The translations under genes and the position numbers were made by a program. DNA of 64,000 nt from Escherichia coli (lineage in GTDB: Bacteria > Pseudomonadota > Gammaproteobacteria > Enterobacterales > Enterobacteriaceae): the NCBI RefSeq assembly GCF_017348835.2, contig NZ_CP071375.1. One strand, written 5' to 3'. Every line of letters begins with the position of its first letter. The stretch's first letter is position 1. Below are positions 5,171 to 42,224 of this stretch, in pieces. The notes beneath the pieces are model-generated. The model saw nothing but the letters and a program-made list of their open reading frames with translations, was not told where the DNA came from and made no database searches.

Positions 5171-5937
5171 GCCGATGCCTCCAGAAATCCAGTCAGCGGG
5201 CTGGTGGCATGAGCAAAATGACTGCGGCTGCCCGGTCCGGACTGACGTGCCAGCAGGCCTGCTTCTACCGCCAGACGAAATGCCTTCGCCATGTTGACGG
5301 GATCGTCCGCGACGGCAATCGCCGTATTCACTAACACCGCGTCGGCCCCCATTTCCAGCGCCTGCGCGGCATGGCTGGGAACGCCGATGCCAGCATCGAC
5401 AACCACCGGAACTGTGGCCTGCTGGATAATAATCTCCAGCATGGCACGGGTTTCCAGTCCCTGATTCGAGCCAATCGGCGCGCCGAGCGGCATCACCGCT
5501 GCACAGCCGACTTCTTCCAGACGTTTACACAATACCGGATCGGCCCCGCAGTAAGGCAGCACGACAAATCCCTGTTGTACCAGCGTTTCGGCGGCTTTCA
5601 GGGTTTCGATGGGATCGGGCAACAGCCAGCGGGCGTCAGGGTGAATCTCCAATTTTAGCCAGTTTGTGCCTAACGCTTCACGTGCCAGATGGGCGGCGAA
5701 AATGGCTTCTTCCGCTGTTTTCGCCCCGGAAGTATTCGGCAGCAGGGTCACACCCGCCGCGATAAGCGGTTCGAGGATAGCGTCGTTGTGCTGGCGCAAG
5801 TCGACACGTTTCATCGCCAGTGTCACCAGCTGGCTGCCGGAAGCGCGAATCGCCTCCACCATCAGTTGTGAAGAAGCGAATTTCCCGGTGCCGGTAAACA
5901 GATGTGAATCAAACGTTTTGTCCGCAATACGTAACAT
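5167..5937 (-). CDS. thiG: Thiazole synthase
   Basis: Start taken at MLRIADKTF inside the longer ORF, giving 256 aa; overlaps thiH start by 4 nt. Confidence 0.92.
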
Positions 5938-5938
5938 C

Positions 5939-6139
5939 TCAACCCCCTGCAATAACCTGAAAAAGCAGGATCTGGTCGCCATCCTGCACGATATGTTGCA
6001 TCCACTGCTCACGCGGGACGATTTGATGATTAATCGCCAGAGCCGCGCCCGCTTGTCGTTGGTCGAGTTGCTCCAGTAGTTCGTGAACAGTTTGCCCGGC
6101 GCCGCACTGCATCGGTTGATCGTTAAACAGGATCTGCAT
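5939..6139 (-). CDS. thiS: Sulfur-carrier protein ThiS
   Basis: 66-aa product MQILFNDQ...VIAGG with C-terminal GG, typical of ThiS. Confidence 0.9.
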
Positions 6140-6878: not shown

Positions 6879-9404
<2,526 letters not shown>

Positions 9405-9444
9405 TCATTCCAAAAAGTTAAGGACGTGGCTTGTCAGACGACGG

Positions 9445-9580
9445 ATGAAGCAAGAGACGATCGCCGCAAAGGCGATGCGATAGCAGATTAACTCTTGTTC
9501 CCTTCGCAGGTATTAGCCTGATCAGGTTCCGCGGATCCCGAATAAACGGTCTCAGCCAGTTAAGGCACTCCGACAAGAAA
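9445..9580 (-). promoter_or_regulatory. TPP riboswitch (THI element) in the thiC leader
   Basis: Minus-strand leader contains CTGAGA followed by AACCTGATCAGGCTAATACCTGCGAAGGGAA, the conserved THI-box core; boundaries approximate. Confidence 0.7.
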
Positions 9581-9633
9581 TTAGCCCCACAAACGGGGCG
9601 TTGAATGTAAATTACGCGTTAACAGCGCAGAAC

Positions 9634-10110
9634 TCAAGCAGGATGTTTGACGCGGGCGGCGTCAAGCACCAGCAGAATCAGCTTATCTTCCAGCACAAAG
9701 CGCGCTTCCAGCGCCTCGCCGATGTCAGATAAAACCTGTTGAAACTCAAGGTAATTATCATGATCGATAGCGGTTTCCAGGCTGGAATCGTAGTAATCCA
9801 TAATCTGTTGGGTATTGGCTTCGAGTTGCGGCCAAATCTTCGCGGCGCGCGCGAGTTGCCCGTTGCCTTCCAGCTTATGAAGAATGCGCTCATAAATACT
9901 GAAATGTCCGGCAGACAAGTAATCGACCAGGCTCTGACAAAAATCATCAAGGGCTTTTTCGTTTAGCCTCATGTACGATTCTTTGCCAGGCTTAATGCCA
10001 ACCAGATTGTAGTAAGCCACGAGCAGATGCTTACGTACATGTAGCCAGCGATCAACCAGTTTGTTACTTCCTCTGACGCGCTCCGTCAGGTTATCGAGCT
10101 GGTTAAGCAT
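9634..10110 (-). CDS. rsd: Regulator of sigma-70 (anti-sigma D)
   Basis: 158-aa ORF MLNQLDNLTERVRGSNKLVDRWLHVRKHLL; position between thiC and nudC. Confidence 0.9.
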   Translation of the reverse strand: MLNQLDNLTERVRGSNKLVDRWLHVRKHLLVAYYNLVGIKPGKESYMRLNEKALDDFCQSLVDYLSAGHFSIYERILHKLEGNGQLARAAKIWPQLEANTQQIMDYYDSSLETAIDHDNYLEFQQVLSDIGEALEARFVLEDKLILLVLDAARVKHPA

Positions 10111-10204
10111 GATTGACTCCGCAAGTTTGTATTCAAAAACTGCTCAGTGAGAAATGTAAAAACCATGTTAAACATGCCAGTGATGCAAAGGTAGTGCAAG
10201 AGCT

Positions 10205-10978
10205 ATGGATCGTATAATTGAAAAATTAGATCACGGCTGGTGGGTCGTCAGCCATGAACAAAAATTATGGTTGCCGAAGGGAGAATTGCCATATGGCGAA
10301 GCGGCAAATTTCGATCTTGTGGGTCAGCGCGCACTACAAATCGGCGAATGGCAGGGGGAACCTGTTTGGTTAATACAACAGCAGCGGCGTCACGATATGG
10401 GGTCGGTACGTCAGGTCATTGATCTCGATGTTGGGCTGTTTCAACTGGCCGGACGTGGCGTGCAACTGGCGGAGTTTTACCGATCGCATAAATACTGTGG
10501 TTACTGCGGGCATGAAATGTATCCAAGCAAAACCGAATGGGCGATGCTGTGCAGCCATTGCCGTGAGCGTTACTACCCGCAAATCGCCCCCTGCATTATT
10601 GTTGCCATCCGTCGCGATGATTCGATCCTCCTCGCCCAGCATACCCGCCATCGTAACGGTGTCCATACGGTACTTGCCGGATTCGTCGAAGTGGGCGAAA
10701 CCCTCGAGCAGGCGGTCGCGCGGGAAGTGATGGAAGAGAGCGGAATTAAAGTTAAAAACTTGCGTTATGTGACTTCCCAGCCGTGGCCGTTTCCTCAGTC
10801 TTTAATGACCGCGTTTATGGCGGAATATGACAGCGGCGACATCGTGATCGACCCGAAAGAATTGCTCGAGGCGAACTGGTATCGCTATGACGATTTGCCG
10901 TTACTCCCGCCGCCCGGCACCGTGGCGCGCCGTCTGATAGAAGATACGGTGGCGCTGTGTCGGGCAGAGTACGAGTGA
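10205..10978 (+). CDS. nudC: NADH pyrophosphatase (Nudix hydrolase)
   Basis: 257-aa ORF with Cys4 zinc motif (CGYCG...CSHC) and Nudix box ([11 protein letters not shown]). Confidence 0.93.
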
Positions 10979-27546: not shown

Positions 27547-28476
27547 ATGCCGATTCGTGTGCCGGACGAGCTGCCCGCCGTCAATTTCTTGCGTGAAGAA
27601 AACGTCTTTGTGATGACAACTTCTCGTGCGTCTGGTCAGGAAATTCGTCCACTTAAGGTTCTGATCCTTAACCTGATGCCGAAGAAGATTGAAACTGAAA
27701 ATCAATTTCTGCGCCTGCTTTCAAACTCACCTTTGCAGGTCGATATTCAGCTGTTGCGCATCGATTCCCGTGAATCGCGCAACACGCCCGCAGAGCATCT
27801 GAACAACTTCTACTGTAACTTTGAAGATATTCAGGAACAGAACTTTGACGGTCTGATTGTAACCGGTGCGCCGCTGGGCCTGGTGGAGTTTAATGATGTC
27901 GCTTACTGGCCGCAGATCAAACAGGTGCTGGAGTGGTCGAAAGATCACGTCACCTCGACGCTGTTTGTCTGCTGGGCGGTACAGGCCGCGCTCAATATCC
28001 TCTACGGCATTCCTAAGCAAACTCGCACCGACAAACTCTCTGGCGTTTACGAGCATCATATTCTCCATCCTCATGCGCTTCTGACGCGTGGCTTTGATGA
28101 TTCATTCCTGGCACCACATTCGCGCTATGCTGACTTTCCGGCAGCGTTGATTCGTGATTATACCGATCTGGAAATTCTGGCAGAGACAGAAGAAGGAGAT
28201 GCGTATCTGTTTGCCAGCAAAGACAAGCGTATCGCCTTTGTGACGGGGCATCCGGAATACGACGCACATACGCTGGCGCAGGAATATTTCCGCGATGAGG
28301 AAGCCGGACTAAAACCGGATGTACCGTATAACTATTTTCCGCACAACGATCCGCAAAACAAACCGCGAGCGAGCTGGCGTAGTCACGGTAATTTGCTATT
28401 TACCAACTGGCTCAACTATTACGTCTACCAGATCACGCCATACGATCTGCGCCGTATGAATCCAACGCTGGATTAA
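27547..28476 (+). CDS. metA: Homoserine O-succinyltransferase
   Basis: 309-aa [26 protein letters not shown]... Confidence 0.95.
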
Positions 28477-28482
28477 TCCTTA

Positions 28483-28510
28483 CAGCTCCCGAAACTTCAT
28501 TCGGGAGCTG
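28483..28510. terminator. Hairpin between convergent metA and the dehydratase gene
   Basis: cagctcccgaa-acttca-ttcgggagctg, 11-bp stem. Confidence 0.6.
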
Positions 28511-28516
28511 TCTCTG

Positions 28517-29704
28517 TCAGGCCATCCGACAAGCTACTGGTGAATAATCGAAGGCTTTATAGGTCAGAACAAACTCTTTATGCCCCAGCCGCTCTGCGCT
28601 ACAAAGTTTACCGCTGCTGACTTCCTCAATGCAGTGCAACATATCGCTTGCGACATCATCAAGCGATGCACCTTCACTGATAATCCTGCCAGCATTAATA
28701 TCCATATCATCCGCCATATTGGCCCAGGTTTGTGGGTTGTTACAGACTTTAATCACTGGCGCAATTACGGAGCCGATCACTGAACCTCGTCCGGTGGTAA
28801 ACAAAATCATATGACATCCGGTAGCGATAAGTTCCATCGCTTCTGATGAGTCATTGATGTTGGGATAGCCGAAACGCGCTTCGCCGTCGGGAACCACATC
28901 CATCAGATACAGACCAGGGTAAGGGGCATGTTCTGTCGGGAGTAAAACGCCCTGAATAGGGCTATCGCCTGACTTTGTATAGGCACCCAGCGATTTTTCT
29001 TCTTGCGTGGTTAACCCGCCGACGGCGTTACCGTTAGAAAAACTGCCTAAACCCATTGTCGCGTAATAGCGTTTAGCTTTATCCATTGCTGCATCAATCG
29101 CCTCTCTGGCCGCAGGTGTCGCCGCTCGCGCCATCATGTGGCCTTCACAACCAATCAACTCGCCGCTCTCTTCAAAAATGCAGGTCGCGCCTTGTGCGAG
29201 GAGTCGATCAAACGCGCGACCTACGGCAGGATTGCCCGTAATGCCGCTGGTGCCGTCGGAACCGCCGCAAATCGTACCAATAACTAAATCACTGAACGCA
29301 ATCGGGCGAACCGCCACCTGCTTAATTTGCGCCAGCATCTCTGTGACACAAACTTTGCCCCGTTTGATGGTTTCTGTAGTTCCCTTATTTTCCTGGATAA
29401 CCAGCTTATGGCATGGGCGACCACTGGCGATGACATCTTCATAAAGTTTATCGCGATCAAAGTTTTCGCAGCCGAGGGCGATAATCAACACCGCACCAAC
29501 ATTGGGATGGGTCGCCAGTCCTTTTACCAGTCGGTAGCCGTAGTCCGTGGGGTAACAGCCGGAAAAACCAAAATACTGCACGTCTTCATTTGTGAAAGAC
29601 TCAGCGATCGCTTTGGCAACGTGGCTGGCGCATTCCACCATAAAGATGACTTGTACGCTGTTACGTATACCGACTCTGCCATCTTGTCTCATGTAACCCT
29701 GCAT
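28517..29704 (-). CDS. UxaA-family (altronate/galactarate-type) sugar-acid dehydratase, catalytic large subunit
   Basis: 395-aa ORF resembling the C-terminal catalytic part of altronate dehydratase; start ATG overlaps the upstream stop by 1 nt. Confidence 0.7.
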   Translation of the reverse strand: MQGYMRQDGRVGIRNSVQVIFMVECASHVAKAIAESFTNEDVQYFGFSGCYPTDYGYRLVKGLATHPNVGAVLIIALGCENFDRDKLYEDVIASGRPCHKLVIQENKGTTETIKRGKVCVTEMLAQIKQVAVRPIAFSDLVIGTICGGSDGTSGITGNPAVGRAFDRLLAQGATCIFEESGELIGCEGHMMARAATPAAREAIDAAMDKAKRYYATMGLGSFSNGNAVGGLTTQEEKSLGAYTKSGDSPIQGVLLPTEHAPYPGLYLMDVVPDGEARFGYPNINDSSEAMELIATGCHMILFTTGRGSVIGSVIAPVIKVCNNPQTWANMADDMDINAGRIISEGASLDDVASDMLHCIEEVSSGKLCSAERLGHKEFVLTYKAFDYSPVACRMA

Positions 29705-30024
29705 CAGGCCTCTCCTGCTGGCTCATAGCCCGCATTATCATGGTGGAATACGGCGATATAATCGCTGTTCAGGTTATGGGAATGGATATGCTCGCCAATA
29801 GGGATAGCCTGACTGGCAGAGCCAATGCCTGCGCCATATTTACGAACTTTATCGCCCTGACATAACGTTTCGATTGCCAGCTTATGCCCAAGAGCAACGT
29901 AGCTTTGTGCCACAAATTCACCACCGTCATAGTGGACGCGATCGCCTTGCTGAATATCTTCCAGGGCGACAACGCAGTTATCGAGTTTGTGTAATAGCAG
30001 AGCGCGTTTATTCATGTTCACCAA
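29704..30024 (-). CDS. SAF-domain small subunit of a UxaA-family dehydratase
   Basis: 106-aa ORF resembling the N-terminal SAF domain of UxaA-type dehydratases; TGATG overlap with the large subunit. Confidence 0.65.
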   Translation of the reverse strand: MVNMNKRALLLHKLDNCVVALEDIQQGDRVHYDGGEFVAQSYVALGHKLAIETLCQGDKVRKYGAGIGSASQAIPIGEHIHSHNLNSDYIAVFHHDNAGYEPAGEA

Positions 30025-30071
30025 CTCTCCTGGTTGTGGGGATACAGGCGACCCACAGGCCGCCCGACTGT

Positions 30072-30836
30072 TTAGAAACCGATCAGCGCGCCGCCATCGA
30101 CAATCAGAACCTGACCGCTAACGAAACCGGCAGCATCAGAAGCCAGATAGGTTGCAGCCCAGCCGATATCTTCTGGTTTGCCGAATTTTTTCATCGGTGT
30201 ACGACCAAGAATTTTATTTTTACGCTCATCGTCACCCTCAATGGCTTTGCGCAGCATTGGCGTATCAATCCAGCCCGGAGCGACGCCGTTAACGCGGATC
30301 CCTGCGCCAGAAAGTTCGGTTGCCATGCCATGAATCAGCCCGAGGTAGGCAGACTTCGCGGCAGCATAGCCGGTGACATAAGGTTGACCGAGGAACGATG
30401 TCATTGAGGCGGTAAAAAGCACACAGGCATTGCCATGCTGTTTCATATGAGGGACCAGCGAGCGAGTCAGAGCGAACGCGCCAACGACATGGACATCAAG
30501 AACCGATTCAAAATCAGCGACGCTCATCTCTTCGATCGGTTTTTTACAGTGATTTCCGGCGTTATTGACCAGAATATCGATCTGATTATGCTGGCTCAGA
30601 AGGCCGTCTACCCAACTTTCCGTCTCGTCAGTGTGGGCCACATTGAACTGGCTCCAGGATGCATTTGGCCCCAGCGACTCGGCAGCGTTTTTGGCAGCTT
30701 CGCCATTGAGATCGGCAATGATGACTTTTGCGCCACAGGCGATCATGCATTTAGCCATTGCATAGCCCAGGCCACTGGCGGAACCGGTGATCAGGGCAGT
30801 TTTATTTTCCAGTGAAAAGGGGTTATTCATCGTCAT
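30072..30836 (-). CDS. Short-chain dehydrogenase/reductase (SDR) oxidoreductase
   Basis: 254-aa ORF with TGSASGLG cofactor motif and YAAAK catalytic pair. Confidence 0.8.
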   Translation of the reverse strand: MTMNNPFSLENKTALITGSASGLGYAMAKCMIACGAKVIIADLNGEAAKNAAESLGPNASWSQFNVAHTDETESWVDGLLSQHNQIDILVNNAGNHCKKPIEEMSVADFESVLDVHVVGAFALTRSLVPHMKQHGNACVLFTASMTSFLGQPYVTGYAAAKSAYLGLIHGMATELSGAGIRVNGVAPGWIDTPMLRKAIEGDDERKNKILGRTPMKKFGKPEDIGWAATYLASDAAGFVSGQVLIVDGGALIGF

Positions 30837-30861
30837 GATTTTTTTCTCGTCAGATAAAGGG

Positions 30862-31875
30862 TTAGAGGTCGATTAAAATTTTGGTGAATGCGCCGGGATC
30901 GGCGGCCCAGTCGCTGAACGCCCGATCGGCAGTATCAATCGGGTAGTGCGCGGAAATAATTAGCTCAATGGGGTAGCACTGCTTTTCCATTAAAGAGAGA
31001 ACTGCTCTGAAATCGGCAACGGTGGCGTTGCGGGAACCACGGATATCCAGCTCTTTCATGAGGAAGCGCGCGCTCTCATAATTCACCGGTTTTTTCGCAT
31101 AGCCGACGTACACCACGCGCCCGCAGAAGGCAGCCAGCTCGACTGCCTGCTCGATGGTTTTATCCAGGCCAATGGCTTCAATCACCACCGCAGGACCGCG
31201 GTCTTCGTTCAGTTTCGCCAGGATCTCAGCAACATTTTCGCGTGCGCTGTTGATATACCTTTCGGCACCACATGCCTTCGCTACCGCCTGCTTACGATCG
31301 TCGATATCAATGGCTACCACGCGACCGCCCATCGCGTTAGCTGCTGCAATAGCGCCAAGACCAATCACGCCGCAGCCCATAACGACGACCCATTCGCCAA
31401 CATTGATTTGCGCCCGGCGCGCAGCGTGAAGACCAACGGCTAATGGTTCGACTAACGCCAGTTCGTCACTGGAAAGGGAATTACAGACAATGACTTTATT
31501 GGCCGGAATAGACAGCAGCGGCACCATACCGCCCTGGCGCTGAACGCCAAGAGTCTGGTTGTTTTTACAGGCATTCGGGCGACCGCTCAGACAGGAACTG
31601 CAATGACCGCATTCGGTACAGGGCAGAACAACAACACGATCGCCTTCCAGAATATGTTTAACCTGGCTGCCTGTTTGCAGGATCTTGCCGCCGATTTCAT
31701 GACCGGGAATGCAAGGATACTGCGTGAGGGGATTTAGCCCGCGCCAGGTATTTAAATCTGAACCGCATAAACCAACTCGTTCAACACGAATTAATACATG
31801 GTCGGCTGGGCAATCAGGTTCGGCGATATCAATAAATCGCGTTACGGAACCTTTATCAATGGCTAACGCTTTCAT
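30862..31875 (-). CDS. Zinc-dependent medium-chain alcohol/polyol dehydrogenase
   Basis: Start taken at MKALAIDKG (337 aa); GHEIGG zinc motif, structural-zinc Cys cluster CTECGHCSSC, GCGVIG Rossmann motif. Confidence 0.8.
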   Translation of the reverse strand: MKALAIDKGSVTRFIDIAEPDCPADHVLIRVERVGLCGSDLNTWRGLNPLTQYPCIPGHEIGGKILQTGSQVKHILEGDRVVVLPCTECGHCSSCLSGRPNACKNNQTLGVQRQGGMVPLLSIPANKVIVCNSLSSDELALVEPLAVGLHAARRAQINVGEWVVVMGCGVIGLGAIAAANAMGGRVVAIDIDDRKQAVAKACGAERYINSARENVAEILAKLNEDRGPAVVIEAIGLDKTIEQAVELAAFCGRVVYVGYAKKPVNYESARFLMKELDIRGSRNATVADFRAVLSLMEKQCYPIELIISAHYPIDTADRAFSDWAADPGAFTKILIDL

Positions 31876-31888
31876 ATAAAAACCTTTT

Positions 31889-33187
31889 TTAAAGTGAATC
31901 GGATGAAATAACAGAATCGGTATTTTTAATATTTCTCTTAATAGGTTTAACGCCAAAGGCTACCCCAAGAGCGCCGATTACCCCAATGGCACCCGCAAGA
32001 ATAAATGCAGCAATAAAACTATTGGTATATTGGACAATGAAGCCAGTTAAAATAGGGGCGATAATTCCCGAGGTGTTTGCCAGTAAATGTACAAAACCAC
32101 CAACGCCACCGACTTTATCAGGGGAAATATTATCGGAGACAATTGCCCACGGCGCGGCAGCGGCGAGATACATAAAGAAGATACCCATTGCCATTAACAT
32201 CACTGCATTTGTTACGGAGGCAACCTGACCCGCAAAACTGATACAAATAGCCGAGAGAATTAACCCTCCAACGATAATTAACTTTCTGGCCAGCAGCAGA
32301 TTTTTGGTTTTGCGATATAACCAGTCTGAAAACATACCGCCAATAGCAATACCAACGCTACCAATAATCCACGGAATGGCCGAGGCAATACTCATCTCCT
32401 GAATATTTAGTCCCTTTTCCATTGAGAGATAACTTGGAAACCAGGTTAAAAAGAAATACAGAATATAGTTAATAGAGAAGAATGCCAGGCCAGTGAACAG
32501 AACTATAGGCTGGGTCAGGTAGAAGATAAAAGGCACTTTGGCTGAGTCAGTGCCGTAGCCTGGCGCGCCTTTTTGCGCCTCATCATACTCGGCAATTTCT
32601 TCTTTCGATGTATGAGGGTTATTATGTGGACGATCGGTAAATGCTTTAATCCAGAAAAATGTCCAGATAAAACCCAGAGACATTAAAATGATAAAAGCGA
32701 TGCGCCAGTTCCACATCACCACGATTGCGCCAACAATCGGACCCGCAATCGCACCACCCAAAGGGTTGCCCGCGTTTGCGATGCCCACAGCTCTGGCGCG
32801 CTGATCAAGCGGAACCCAGTTACTAATGCATTTGTTGATCGTCGTACTAATCGGGCCTTCGCTCATCCCGAATAATACGCGCACGATAAACAAAGATATA
32901 TAACCGAAAGCGAGGCCAGTCAGCCCACAGAACAATGACCAGGAAAGCATTGCAATGGCAAAAACTTTGCGGGGACCATAGAGATCGGATAAATAGCCAC
33001 CAACAAAGTTAAATAATGCATAACCAAAGAAAAAACTACTCAGCATAATCCCAACTTCGGCTGGGTTTAGGCCAAAATGATCTTTGATATAGGGCATTGC
33101 CACAGAAAATGCCGCACGATCGAGATAATTAATTATTCCAGCGATAAACAGCAGGAATAATATTTTGGAATGCTGTCGTTTGAACAT
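31889..33187 (-). CDS. MFS transporter, anion:cation symporter type (hexuronate/aldonate-like)
   Basis: 432-aa ORF with many hydrophobic segments and NYLDRAAFSVAMP motif near the N-terminus; AT-rich coding sequence. Confidence 0.75.
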   Translation of the reverse strand: MFKRQHSKILFLLFIAGIINYLDRAAFSVAMPYIKDHFGLNPAEVGIMLSSFFFGYALFNFVGGYLSDLYGPRKVFAIAMLSWSLFCGLTGLAFGYISLFIVRVLFGMSEGPISTTINKCISNWVPLDQRARAVGIANAGNPLGGAIAGPIVGAIVVMWNWRIAFIILMSLGFIWTFFWIKAFTDRPHNNPHTSKEEIAEYDEAQKGAPGYGTDSAKVPFIFYLTQPIVLFTGLAFFSINYILYFFLTWFPSYLSMEKGLNIQEMSIASAIPWIIGSVGIAIGGMFSDWLYRKTKNLLLARKLIIVGGLILSAICISFAGQVASVTNAVMLMAMGIFFMYLAAAAPWAIVSDNISPDKVGGVGGFVHLLANTSGIIAPILTGFIVQYTNSFIAAFILAGAIGVIGALGVAFGVKPIKRNIKNTDSVISSDSL

Positions 33188-33254
33188 AGCAAGTCCTGCA
33201 TAAATAATTTATGTGAATAGTGGTAGGGTAGAATTAATAATTTAAATATATGAT

Positions 33255-33941
33255 CTACATCACACCGAACTTTTCAAATACTTCCACGGTGCTCATGCCA
33301 TTTTTTATCGCCAGACGAACATCACTTTCGGTTGCGACTTTATTCAGTGCTTCAGCTATTACCTCCTTTTCAACTTCTTTTGGAATAACTAAAAGACCAT
33401 CGCAGTCGCCATAAATAATATCGCCGGGATTTATCACCACACCGCAAACTTCAACCGGGACGTTATAATCAATGACTTTTCCTCGCGGCCCCTGATCCTG
33501 AGCATAAGTACCATAACTAAATGTGGGGAAATTAATATCAAGAATTTCTTTAGAGTCCCGGACATAACCATCAAGAACAGCACCGGCGGCCTTAAGATGC
33601 ATAGCGCGAGTGGACATTAAACCGCCCCATAATGCGTAACGTAGCGAACTTCCTGTCGCAATATAAACATCGTTTTCTTTCAGCGAATCCAGCGCCTCAA
33701 ACATAATACCGAACGGTTTTTTACCAATTGCTGTATTCCCCGACGATGAGTGCAACTCATAAACATCGGCTTCAAGAACAGGCATAGCCCGCCCTGCGAG
33801 AACCATACTGGAGTGTAAAGGTTTCATTGAAGGAGAAACAAACTGATGCAAATATCCTTTGGTATCAAGAATATCGCCAACAACGGCAGTAAATAACTGC
33901 GTACGCATCAACTGAAAAAGTTCCTTGTCATTGTTCCACAT
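33255..33941 (-). CDS. RraA-like / class II aldolase-decarboxylase family protein
   Basis: 228-aa ORF; length and sequence resemble the RraA/HMG-CHA aldolase fold rather than 161-aa RraA itself. Confidence 0.6.
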   Translation of the reverse strand: MWNNDKELFQLMRTQLFTAVVGDILDTKGYLHQFVSPSMKPLHSSMVLAGRAMPVLEADVYELHSSSGNTAIGKKPFGIMFEALDSLKENDVYIATGSSLRYALWGGLMSTRAMHLKAAGAVLDGYVRDSKEILDINFPTFSYGTYAQDQGPRGKVIDYNVPVEVCGVVINPGDIIYGDCDGLLVIPKEVEKEVIAEALNKVATESDVRLAIKNGMSTVEVFEKFGVM

Positions 33942-33992
33942 AATTAACGATCCTGAATTGTAGTGAGGAGGTGTGAACAGAGACTAGAGTAG

Positions 33993-34025
33993 AACCTATA
34001 AACCTGTCAAACAGGTTTATAGGTT
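33993..34025. promoter_or_regulatory. Perfect 15-bp inverted repeat, candidate operator in the divergent promoter region
   Basis: AACCTATAAACCTGT-caa-ACAGGTTTATAGGTT, 52 bp upstream of the RraA-like gene start and ~210 bp upstream of the GntR-type regulator gene. Confidence 0.55.
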
Positions 34026-34236
34026 GAAGAGTGTAAACGATCGCACTCTGCGAGCCTCTTCACAATTTCAGCTATGGTTTACTGCGATCGCTTTTCAACC
34101 GGATGCGTCCTATCGCTGCTACGCCTTTTTCGGTAACATACGAACCAAAGGTAGGAGGGATTATCTGTAACGCTATGATTTTTAAGTTTTAGATAAGATA
34201 TGTTGCGGCTGAAACAGGTAATATCTGCTCGGTAAA

Positions 34237-34965
34237 TTGATGGCAAGAATGATGACAACGAAAATTCAGCTAGAAAGTAACACGCTCTCAGCCCAGGTAC
34301 GAGACTACATACTGTCGTTAATTGCGCGGCAAAAGTTAACCGTCGGGATGCCGGTGCCCAGTGAAATGCAACTTACCCAGGAACTTGGCGTCAGTAAGGG
34401 CGTTGTCCGTGAGGCCTATCGTTCACTTGCCGCCCTTGGAATACTCGAAACCAAAAGTGGTAAAGTGCCACGCATTAAAGCCTTTGATTCTAGCGTGTTG
34501 CAGGTCATTTTTTCCTTTGCGACGCTGACCGAGCAGGTCAGTTCTTCACAGATACTTGCCGCCAGACGTTGGCTGGAAGCCGGATGCGTACAAATGGCGG
34601 CGCTCAATGGAGATGAAGAGGATTTTGCTGCGCTGAAGCAAGAAATGTCGTTGATACGCGAAGAGTTTTCTGACACCGAGCGTTTCCTGGAACATGATTT
34701 AAATTTCCATTTGCTGTTATCGCAGGCATCTAAAAATCCTTTATTCAGCATTCTGTTGCAGGCTTTACACACCCAGTTAACCCACTCAATGCGAGCGGGT
34801 CTGGAAGCACAACGCAATAATCATGAATATGAGCGTGGGATAATTGCATTGCACCAACGTGTTTGTGACTGTGTTTGTAATCGCGATGCTGAAGGTGCGA
34901 TGAAAGCCATGGATGAGCATTTCAACCTCTCTTCTGATGCTTTAAACAATCAGTCTCCTCTTTAA
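34237..34965 (+). CDS. GntR/FadR-family transcriptional regulator
   Basis: 242-aa ORF with N-terminal winged-HTH (QLTQELGVSKGVVREAYRSLAALGILE) and a C-terminal helical ligand domain; divergent from the catabolic genes. Confidence 0.8.
   Translation: MMARMMTTKIQLESNTLSAQVRDYILSLIARQKLTVGMPVPSEMQLTQELGVSKGVVREAYRSLAALGILETKSGKVPRIKAFDSSVLQVIFSFATLTEQVSSSQILAARRWLEAGCVQMAALNGDEEDFAALKQEMSLIREEFSDTERFLEHDLNFHLLLSQASKNPLFSILLQALHTQLTHSMRAGLEAQRNNHEYERGIIALHQRVCDCVCNRDAEGAMKAMDEHFNLSSDALNNQSPL

Positions 34966-38332: not shown

Positions 38333-42224
<3,892 letters not shown>

What the first reader, a model, noticed from the sequence alone, without database searches (positions are those of the whole stretch)
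28517..30024. UxaA-type dehydratase encoded as two overlapping ORFs
In E. coli UxaA and GarD the SAF N-terminal domain and the catalytic C-terminal domain are one polypeptide. Here they are a 106-aa and a 395-aa ORF joined by a TGATG overlap. This is either a natural two-subunit variant or a frameshifted single gene.
Basis: partly seen in the sequence, partly recalled or inferred. Interest (0 to 1): 0.4.

Follow-up and report, generated by a model that had tools for sequence, protein, structure and literature searches.

The report
Naturally two-subunit UxaA-family sugar-acid dehydratase
The two overlapping genes are an intact, widely conserved two-subunit form of a UxaA/GarD-type sugar-acid dehydratase, not a broken single gene, and this split layout is already known and annotated, so the finding is ordinary.

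Summary
On the minus strand, a small ORF with a SAF domain (29704-30015, 103 aa from the ATG that PGAP uses) ends in a TGA. That TGA shares its A with the ATG of a 395-aa ORF (28517-29704), which carries the second and C-terminal UxaA/GarD domains.

The frameshift reading is rejected. I examined 82 related loci from many phyla. In 76 of them a separate SAF ORF lies directly upstream of the large gene, and none is fused. The junctions differ: ATGA, TGATG or TAATG overlaps, or short gaps. Of the 120 best large-subunit homologues, 118 lack a SAF domain. Of the 150 best small-subunit cluster representatives, 141 are under 200 aa. A split pair occurs in 663 of 5426 complete E. coli genomes, and it is annotated as two CDS in all 17 rows shown.

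The break falls in the interdomain linker, and an AGGAG Shine-Dalgarno sequence lies 7 nt before the second ATG. Heteromeric members of this superfamily are already described: SuyAB, a proposed L-fuconate dehydratase, and the KEGG "altronate dehydratase large subunit" entry.

The pair closes a sugar-acid operon (GntR regulator, RraA-like protein, anion-type MFS transporter, Zn-ADH, SDR) inserted between metA and aceB. The substrate is unknown. Interest is low.

The parts
29704..30015 (-). Small subunit gene (103 aa plus stop). It has a SAF/beta-clip domain (residues ~6-84) and a variable tail that is predicted disordered (residues 85-103). Alternative starts are the GTG at 30021 and the TTG at 30024.
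   Evidence: Pfam SAF E 6.8e-07. PDB 3k3s altronate hydrolase fragment E 5e-14. PGAP CDS WP_053883796.1 'UxaA family hydrolase', not marked as a pseudogene. AF2 pLDDT is 90-96 over residues 1-80 and below 50 from residue 89.
28517..29704 (-). Large subunit gene (395 aa plus stop). It carries the second and C-terminal domains of the UxaA/GarD dehydratases, including four invariant cysteines (C25, C50, C79, C146).
   Evidence: Pfam GD_AH_second 1.4e-28 and GD_AH_C 2.7e-78. It aligns to GarD 6u7l residues 124-504, E 5e-32, with the four Cys columns matched. The Cys are invariant in alignments A1 and A2. PGAP CDS WP_170942571.1.
29702..29706 (-). TGATG junction. The small gene's TGA stop (29704-29706) and the large gene's ATG start (29702-29704) share base 29704.
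   Evidence: Read directly from the sequence. In the large-gene frame there is a stop codon six codons upstream of the ATG, so the large ORF cannot be extended.
29712..29716 (-). Shine-Dalgarno-like AGGAG inside the last codons of the small gene, 7 nt upstream of the large gene's ATG. This is a translational-coupling layout.
   Evidence: Read from the sequence. An SD-like motif lies before the large-subunit start in 60 of 76 related loci.
30072..30836 (-). SDR-family oxidoreductase, immediately upstream in the same operon.
   Evidence: Pfam adh_short_C2 5e-57. It passes the NCBIfam NF005559 'glucose 1-dehydrogenase' subfamily cut-off (222 vs 215 bits). It is syntenic in related loci at 67-81% identity.
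30862..31875 (-). Zinc-dependent alcohol/polyol dehydrogenase family protein.
   Evidence: Pfam ADH_N and ADH_zinc_N. The best solved relatives are RspB, L-threonine 3-dehydrogenase and galactitol-1-P 5-dehydrogenase. PGAP annotation.
31889..33187 (-). MFS transporter of the anion:cation symporter type, similar to the D-galactonate transporter.
   Evidence: Pfam MFS_1 7e-62. NCBIfam TIGR00893 'D-galactonate transporter' scores 333 bits, below its cut-off of 395.
33255..33941 (-). RraA-like protein (aldolase/decarboxylase fold), the first gene of the operon.
   Evidence: Pfam RraA-like 1.1e-32. It is related to the HMG/CHA aldolase 3noj. It is syntenic with the split pair in distant genomes at 54-79% identity.
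34240..34965 (+). Divergently transcribed GntR/FadR-family (FCD domain) regulator.
   Evidence: Pfam GntR and FCD. PGAP annotation. It is syntenic in close relatives.
28484..28511 (.). Perfect 12-bp stem-loop between the convergent metA and the large-subunit gene. It is likely a shared transcription stop.
   Evidence: RNA fold -23.4 kcal/mol, z = -4.8 against shuffles. There is no clear U-tract, so the role is inferred.

Best explanation
These are two genuine genes encoding the small (SAF/beta-clip) and large (catalytic) subunits of a heteromeric member of the UxaA/GarD sugar-acid dehydratase superfamily. They are the last two genes of a six-gene minus-strand operon. The large gene's ATG overlaps the small gene's TGA by one base and follows an AGGAG embedded in the small gene. 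Ribosomes finishing the small subunit would therefore re-initiate on the large one (translational coupling), which favours roughly equal amounts of the two subunits. The two products then assemble into the same architecture that UxaA and GarD achieve in one chain. The covalent interdomain linker is replaced by a short disordered tail on the small subunit. The metal site with its four conserved cysteines lies wholly in the large subunit. The small subunit supplies the conserved D-N, G-H-K and H-x-H-N motifs of the SAF domain. The enzyme probably dehydrates an imported sugar acid to a 2-keto-3-deoxy acid, which the operon's RraA-like protein then cleaves or decarboxylates. The two dehydrogenases probably prepare the substrate. 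Shown here: the gene structure, domain content, conservation of the split, synteny and SD placement. Inferred: complex formation, coupling, the reaction and the substrate class.
For: - **ORFs and junction.**
- **Domains.** SAF in the small ORF; GD_AH_second and GD_AH_C in the large ORF.
- **Position of the split.** The small ORF aligns to GarD 21-89 and the large ORF to GarD 124-504, so the break lies in the interdomain linker.
- **Annotation.** RefSeq annotates two intact 'UxaA family hydrolase' CDS.
- **Large-subunit homologues.** 118 of the 120 best are 327-414 aa with no SAF domain; several carry the JGI name 'altronate dehydratase large subunit'.
- **Small-subunit homologues.** In the exhaustive search, 141 of the 150 best 50%-cluster representatives are under 200 aa, and only 2 look like canonical fused proteins.
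- **Related loci.** 76 of 82 loci from Proteobacteria, Chloroflexi, Actinobacteria, Verrucomicrobia, Planctomycetes and Bacteroidetes have a separate SAF ORF directly upstream. Junction types: 38 ATGA, 11 one-base overlaps, the rest short gaps or overlaps; none is fused. An SD-like motif is present in 60 of 76.
- **E. coli genomes.** 663 of 5426 complete genomes carry a split pair. All 17 rows shown are annotated as two CDS.
- **Natural fusions.** P0043 and P0052 join the two parts through long low-complexity linkers. This is Rosetta-stone evidence that the two parts work together.
- **Structure prediction.** AF2 was run on small subunit, GS linker and large subunit with a paired alignment. 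It gives pLDDT 84.7 and pTM 0.86, with only the tail and linker disordered. The best structural match is GarD 6u7l.
- **Literature.** SuyAB is heteromeric, and Paraburkholderia mimosarum A19U_RS0100650/655 was assigned as a heteromeric L-fuconate dehydratase in this superfamily (PMC6336799). The KEGG K16850 term is cited in PMC12080928.
- **Operon.** The core is conserved across genera. The transporter is of the sugar-acid type.
Against: - No experiment shows that these two proteins bind each other or that the small subunit is needed for activity.
- The AF2 model was built on an artificial fusion, and no inter-domain error map was available.
- The Foldseek superposition on GarD has an rmsd of about 9 A. 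Whether the SAF domain sits as it does in GarD is therefore unresolved.
- The substrate is unknown. The protein scores far below the galactarate dehydratase equivalog cut-off (168 vs 731 bits).
- In 4 loci that do have upstream sequence, the SAF ORF is farther away (L022, L055, L056) or was not found (L047).
Confidence: 0.93

Rival explanations
1. A single uxaA-like gene was broken by a frameshift mutation or a sequencing error, leaving a pseudogene or two non-functional fragments.
For: E. coli's own GarD is a single chain, and the two ORFs are in different frames and touch each other.
Against: The split is conserved in 76 of 76 loci where a SAF ORF adjoins the large gene, across phyla, with different junction sequences and spacings, and none is fused. 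Two independent complete genomes are 100% identical here, and 661 more E. coli genomes carry a 70%-identical pair that is also split. The break lies in the interdomain linker, no sequence is wasted, and an SD sits 7 nt before the ATG. PGAP does not flag a pseudogene. A real frameshift looks different: in strain ST648 the homologous Zn-ADH is cut inside a domain, and the two pieces overlap in query coordinates.
Confidence: 0.02
2. Programmed ribosomal frameshifting or stop-codon bypass at the TGATG junction makes a single fused polypeptide, alone or alongside the two separate products.
For: The frames overlap at the stop codon. Natural fused relatives exist.
Against: There is no slippery heptamer at GAG GCC TGA. 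The large frame has a stop six codons upstream of its ATG. Relatives have gaps of 1-31 nt, in-frame stops or ATGA overlaps that share no frameshift site. The junction looks like ordinary stop-start coupling with an SD.
Confidence: 0.02
3. The two proteins are real but act independently: the large protein is a self-sufficient dehydratase and the small SAF protein has another role.
For: All four conserved cysteines lie in the large protein. In 3 related loci the SAF ORF is 0.7-1.4 kb away.
Against: The two genes are strictly adjacent and overlap stop-to-start in most loci. Natural fusions of exactly these two parts exist. The SAF domain keeps the same invariant polar motifs (D12-N13, G43-H44-K45, H78-x-H80-N81) in split and fused forms. 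SuyAB is described as heteromeric (PMC6336799).
Confidence: 0.04

Closest known systems
E. coli UxaA (D-altronate dehydratase) and GarD (galactarate dehydratase, PDB 6u7l)
   Same: They share the three domains in the same order (SAF/beta-clip, second domain, C-terminal domain). The four cysteine columns are conserved, and GarD is the best structural match.
   Different: UxaA and GarD are single polypeptides with a covalent linker (GarD residues ~90-123). Here the chain is divided at that linker into 103-aa and 395-aa products. Identity to GarD is only about 24%, and the score is far below the GarD equivalog cut-off, so the substrate is probably different.
Heteromeric UxaA/GarD-superfamily enzymes: SuyAB (R)-sulfolactate sulfo-lyase, the two-gene L-fuconate dehydratase assigned in Paraburkholderia mimosarum (A19U_RS0100650/655), and the KEGG/IMG 'altronate dehydratase small/large subunit' entries
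   Same: The architecture is the same: a small subunit gene and a large subunit gene encoded side by side (PMC6336799; for the IMG names; for K16850).
   Different: According to PMC6336799, SuyAB lacks the four conserved cysteines, which are present here, so this is a sugar-acid dehydratase type and not a sulfo-lyase type. The operon here (RraA-like, Zn-ADH, SDR, sugar-acid MFS) is not the L-fucose route described in that paper. I could not compare sequences directly with SuyAB or the P. mimosarum pair.
The gltA-abrB island of about 12% of E. coli genomes (e.g. strain ST648, WP_022645373/WP_022645374)
   Same: It has the same operon core (GntR, RraA-like, Zn-ADH, SDR, small, large) and the same one-base stop/start overlap, here TAATG.
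   Different: It is only about 70% identical in DNA (small subunit 62%, large subunit 75% amino-acid identity). It uses a TRAP transporter instead of the MFS and sits at a different chromosomal site.

Membership tests
UxaA/GarD dehydratase superfamily (COG2721) | N-terminal SAF/beta-clip domain | tested here: met
   Pfam SAF E 6.8e-07. PDB 3k3s E 5e-14 and 3laz E 0.0027. Foldseek TM 0.89 to 3k3s. The domain lies on the separate small protein.
UxaA/GarD dehydratase superfamily (COG2721) | Second domain plus C-terminal catalytic domain (GD_AH_second, GD_AH_C) | tested here: met
   E 1.4e-28 and 2.7e-78, both far above the gathering scores. It aligns to GarD 124-504.
UxaA/GarD dehydratase superfamily (COG2721) | Four conserved cysteines proposed as iron ligands (PMC6336799) | tested here: met
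   C25, C50, C79 and C146 of the large protein align with GarD cysteines. They are invariant in 13 and 32 sequences.
UxaA/GarD dehydratase superfamily (COG2721) | Fe2+/Mn2+-dependent dehydration of a sugar acid to a 2-keto-3-deoxy acid | not testable with these tools
   This needs an enzyme assay.
Galactarate dehydratase GarD (NCBIfam TIGR03248 equivalog) | Score above the curated equivalog cut-off (730.85 bits) | tested here: not met
   167.6 bits for the large protein and 29.5 bits for the small protein.
Heteromeric (two-subunit) UxaA/GarD enzymes | Separate small SAF gene adjacent to the large catalytic gene, with the split conserved among orthologues | tested here: met
   76 of 82 loci have it and none is fused. 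118 of 120 large homologues lack SAF. 141 of 150 small homologues are under 200 aa.
Heteromeric (two-subunit) UxaA/GarD enzymes | The two products form one enzyme complex | not testable with these tools
   Only indirect support is available: natural fusions and an AF2 fused-chain pTM of 0.86.
SuyAB sulfolactate sulfo-lyase | Lacks the four cysteines conserved in the rest of the superfamily (as stated in PMC6336799) | tested here: not met
   All four cysteines are present and invariant here. No SuyAB sequence was available for direct comparison.
Frameshifted pseudogene | Break inside a domain, homology running on in another frame, and intact single-ORF orthologues | tested here: not met
   The break is at the linker, the stop and start abut with an SD, the large frame is closed six codons upstream, and orthologues are split.

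The most novel reading that the evidence does not exclude
The conserved module of RraA-like protein, Zn-ADH, SDR and split UxaA-type dehydratase, with either an MFS or a TRAP acid transporter and a GntR regulator, could be an uncharacterised non-phosphorylative sugar-acid catabolic pathway of the E. coli accessory genome. It is found in 12% of complete genomes at gltA-abrB and, rarely, at metA-aceB. In this reading the two dehydrogenases invert or prepare a stereocentre, the heteromeric dehydratase makes a 2-keto-3-deoxy acid, and an RraA-fold enzyme cleaves or decarboxylates it without phosphorylation. I found no paper that assigns a substrate to this cluster.
Probability: 0.45. Interest if true: 0.35.

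Novelty: already known. Interest (0 to 1): 0.12.

Why it matters
It matters little for the question asked. The split is a normal, ancient and already annotated architecture, and nothing here needs fixing or resequencing. It does have some practical value. Annotators should not merge these two genes or flag them as a pseudogene. Anyone expressing this enzyme should co-express both genes. The residual scientific interest lies in the unknown substrate of the operon. That operon is an accessory trait of a sizeable minority of E. coli, and it pairs a heteromeric UxaA-type dehydratase with an RraA-fold enzyme.

Tried and rejected
- **Frameshift or sequencing error.** Rejected by the comparative genomics.
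- **Programmed frameshift.** Rejected: no slippery site, a closed upstream frame, and no conserved junction type.
- **GarD or UxaA orthology.** Rejected: well below the equivalog cut-off and only ~24% identity.
- **SuyAB identity.** Disfavoured only through the cysteine criterion taken from PMC6336799. A tblastn of the plasmid collection, run hoping to find an annotated suyB, returned none so labelled.
- **Internal promoter or terminator.** The scan of the operon found no more sites than in shuffled sequence and nothing at the junction.
- **SAF placement from the Foldseek superposition on GarD.** TM is 0.70/0.78 but rmsd is about 9 A, so the result is inconclusive.
- **Literature.** The key paper on heteromeric family members (Watanabe et al. 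2019, Mol Microbiol, doi 10.1111/mmi.14259) and JBC PMC6996899 are not held. One search ('GarD', 'clip') was swamped by 'garden' hits and gave nothing.
- **Substrate.** Solved-structure searches with the Zn-ADH, SDR and RraA-like proteins gave only generic relatives and no substrate call.

Full report
**What is in the sequence**

Two minus-strand ORFs occupy the stated interval. One runs 29704..30024 (106 aa counted from a TTG) and the other 28517..29704 (395 aa). On the coding strand the junction reads ...GAG GCC TGA TG CAG GGT... The stop of the first ORF and the ATG of the second share a single base, window 29704.

The window is 100% identical to the chromosome of E. coli PE164. There, RefSeq annotates both ORFs as intact 'UxaA family hydrolase' genes. 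The small one starts at the ATG at 30015, giving 103 aa.

Pfam places a SAF domain in the small protein (E 6.8e-07). It places the GD_AH_second (1.4e-28) and GD_AH_C (2.7e-78) domains in the large protein.

Against solved structures, the small protein matches the N-terminal fragment of altronate hydrolase (3k3s, E 5e-14) and GarD residues 21-89. The large protein matches GarD residues 124-504. The break falls in the interdomain linker.

**Split gene or broken gene?**

Every comparative test favours a natural split.

- **Large-subunit homologues.** Of the 120 best homologues in a 5.8-billion-protein collection, 118 are 327-414 aa and have no SAF domain. Several carry the IMG name 'altronate dehydratase large subunit'.
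- **Small-subunit homologues.** An exhaustive HMMER search found 3310 relatives. Of the 150 best 50%-cluster representatives, 141 are under 200 aa, and only two look like canonical fused proteins of about 500 aa.
- **Related loci.** I fetched 80 loci from one-genome-per-species contigs and added the window and a second E. coli locus.
  - 76 of these 82 have a separate SAF ORF immediately upstream of the large gene, and none is fused.
  - The junctions differ: 38 ATGA overlaps, 11 one-base overlaps (TGATG, TAATG or TAGTG), and the rest short gaps or other overlaps. Six of these are in the same frame but separated by a stop.
  - Of the six loci without an adjacent SAF ORF, two end at a contig edge, three have the SAF ORF 0.7-1.4 kb upstream, and one has none that I detected.
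- **Taxonomic spread.** These genomes span Proteobacteria, Chloroflexi, Actinobacteria, Verrucomicrobia, Planctomycetes and Bacteroidetes. Small-subunit identity runs from 30 to 63%. A frameshift lesion would not persist across such distances while the junction sequence itself turned over.
- **Within E. coli.** 663 of 5426 complete genomes carry a split pair. All 17 rows shown are annotated as two CDS.

That test fails.

**Fused relatives**

Two close relatives, P0043 (531 aa) and P0052 (560 aa), are fused. Their two parts are joined by roughly 45-65 residues of proline/alanine/serine/threonine-rich low-complexity sequence. These are gene fusions through a new linker, not the unbroken ancestor of a one-base frameshift. 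They act as Rosetta-stone evidence that the two products function together.

**A real frameshift, for contrast**

The homologous operon of E. coli ST648 has its Zn-dependent dehydrogenase cut inside a domain. The two pieces are in different frames and overlap in query coordinates, and RefSeq annotates two fragment genes. The UxaA-type junction looks nothing like this.

**How it probably works**

An AGGAG lies at 29712-29716, inside the last codons of the small gene and 7 nt before the large gene's ATG. The large frame is closed by a stop six codons upstream. An SD-like motif precedes the large-subunit start in 60 of 76 related loci. This is the usual layout for stop-start translational coupling. 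I infer that it keeps the two subunits in balance.

The four cysteines conserved across the superfamily are proposed as iron ligands in PMC6336799. All four lie in the large protein (C25, C50, C79, C146). They align with GarD cysteines and are invariant in my alignments.

The small protein keeps invariant polar motifs: D12-N13, G43-H44-K45 and H78-x-H80-N81. These motifs are also visible in the fused altronate hydrolase fragment. They suggest a real contribution to the enzyme, though that is inference.

I modelled the small subunit, a 20-residue GS linker and the large subunit with AlphaFold2, using a paired alignment of 32 sequences. The model has mean pLDDT 84.7 and pTM 0.86. Only the tail of the small subunit (from residue 89) and the artificial linker are disordered. 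The best structural match is GarD 6u7l (TM 0.70/0.78). The rmsd is about 9 A, so I cannot say whether the SAF domain docks as it does in GarD.

**Genomic setting**

The pair ends a minus-strand operon:

- RraA-like protein (33255-33941)
- anion-type MFS transporter resembling D-galactonate transporters (31889-33187)
- Zn-dependent dehydrogenase (30862-31875)
- SDR (30072-30836)
- small subunit
- large subunit

A divergent GntR/FCD regulator lies at 34240-34965.

The block of about 6.5 kb sits between metA and aceB. Only 2 of 5426 complete E. coli genomes have it at that site. A version about 70% identical, with a TRAP transporter instead of the MFS, sits between gltA and abrB in 661 other genomes.

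The core (RraA-like, SDR, small, large, usually with the Zn-ADH) recurs in Sodalis, Entomohabitans, E. albertii, Propionivibrio, a Succinivibrionaceae MAG, Devosia, Pelagibacterium and a Prevotella MAG.

This pattern points to catabolism of an imported sugar acid. The likely steps are dehydration to a 2-keto-3-deoxy acid, then cleavage or decarboxylation by the RraA-fold enzyme. An RraA-like protein acting on 2-keto-3-deoxy-glucarate is reported in PMC8563752. The substrate remains unknown. The protein is not a GarD equivalog (168 vs 731 bits).

**Comparison with what is known**

PMC6336799 lists SuyAB as a heteromeric member of the UxaA/GarD superfamily. It also assigns the adjacent genes A19U_RS0100650/655 of Paraburkholderia mimosarum as a heteromeric L-fuconate dehydratase. 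KEGG has an entry for the altronate dehydratase large subunit, K16850, cited in PMC12080928. IMG uses the same name.

The architecture is therefore known and annotated. According to PMC6336799, SuyAB lacks the four cysteines, which are present here. This places the window's enzyme with the sugar-acid dehydratases and not with the sulfo-lyases. I could not obtain SuyAB or P. mimosarum sequences for a direct comparison.

**Verdict**

The feature is ordinary and already known, so interest is low (0.12). The only open question is the substrate and pathway of the operon.

Noticed in passing
L082 (E. coli ST648, NZ_CP008697.1) 9253-10267: In the homologous operon of strain ST648 the Zn-dependent dehydrogenase is genuinely frameshifted. 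Two tblastn pieces lie in frames -1 and -3 and overlap at query residues 105-117, and RefSeq annotates two fragment CDS.
   Followed up: yes
window 28517-34965: The whole operon is an accessory block of about 6.5 kb (GC 0.479, against 0.50 in the flanks) inserted between metA and aceB. Only 2 of 5426 complete E. coli genomes (PE164 and F2_81, both from pigs) carry it at this site.
   Followed up: partly
L082 4137-11943 (gltA-abrB region of E. coli ST648): A second version of the same operon, about 70% identical in DNA, has a three-gene TRAP transporter in place of the MFS. It is present in 661 of 5426 complete E. coli genomes. I found no literature on its substrate.
   Followed up: partly
window 28484-28511: A perfect 12-bp hairpin (RNA -23.4 kcal/mol, z -4.8) lies between the convergent metA and the large-subunit gene. 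It is probably a shared terminator, but it lacks a clear U-tract.
   Followed up: partly
L003 (Entomohabitans teleogrylli) 6001-~6984: The large-subunit gene of this close relative is cut short at 327 aa (also seen as P0037), which suggests decay of the operon in that genome.
   Followed up: no
L051 and L066, ~5714-6133: In two MAG loci the small ORF runs on to 139-144 aa and overlaps the large gene by more than 120 nt. This could be a lost stop codon, an assembly error or a longer tail.
   Followed up: no
proteins P0181, P0201, P0242, P0244: Some relatives of the small subunit carry the SAF domain at the C-terminus of a 285-437 aa protein. These could be fusions with an upstream operon gene or gene-calling read-through.
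   Followed up: no
window ~28400-28478 (3' end of metA): The 79 nt of metA included in the query are only 92-95% identical to 5151 other E. coli genomes. This hints that the source strain belongs to a divergent Escherichia lineage.
   Followed up: no
window ~40040-42100 (L001 23639-25701): A type III secretion effector gene, espL4, is annotated just downstream of aceK on the opposite strand.
   Followed up: no
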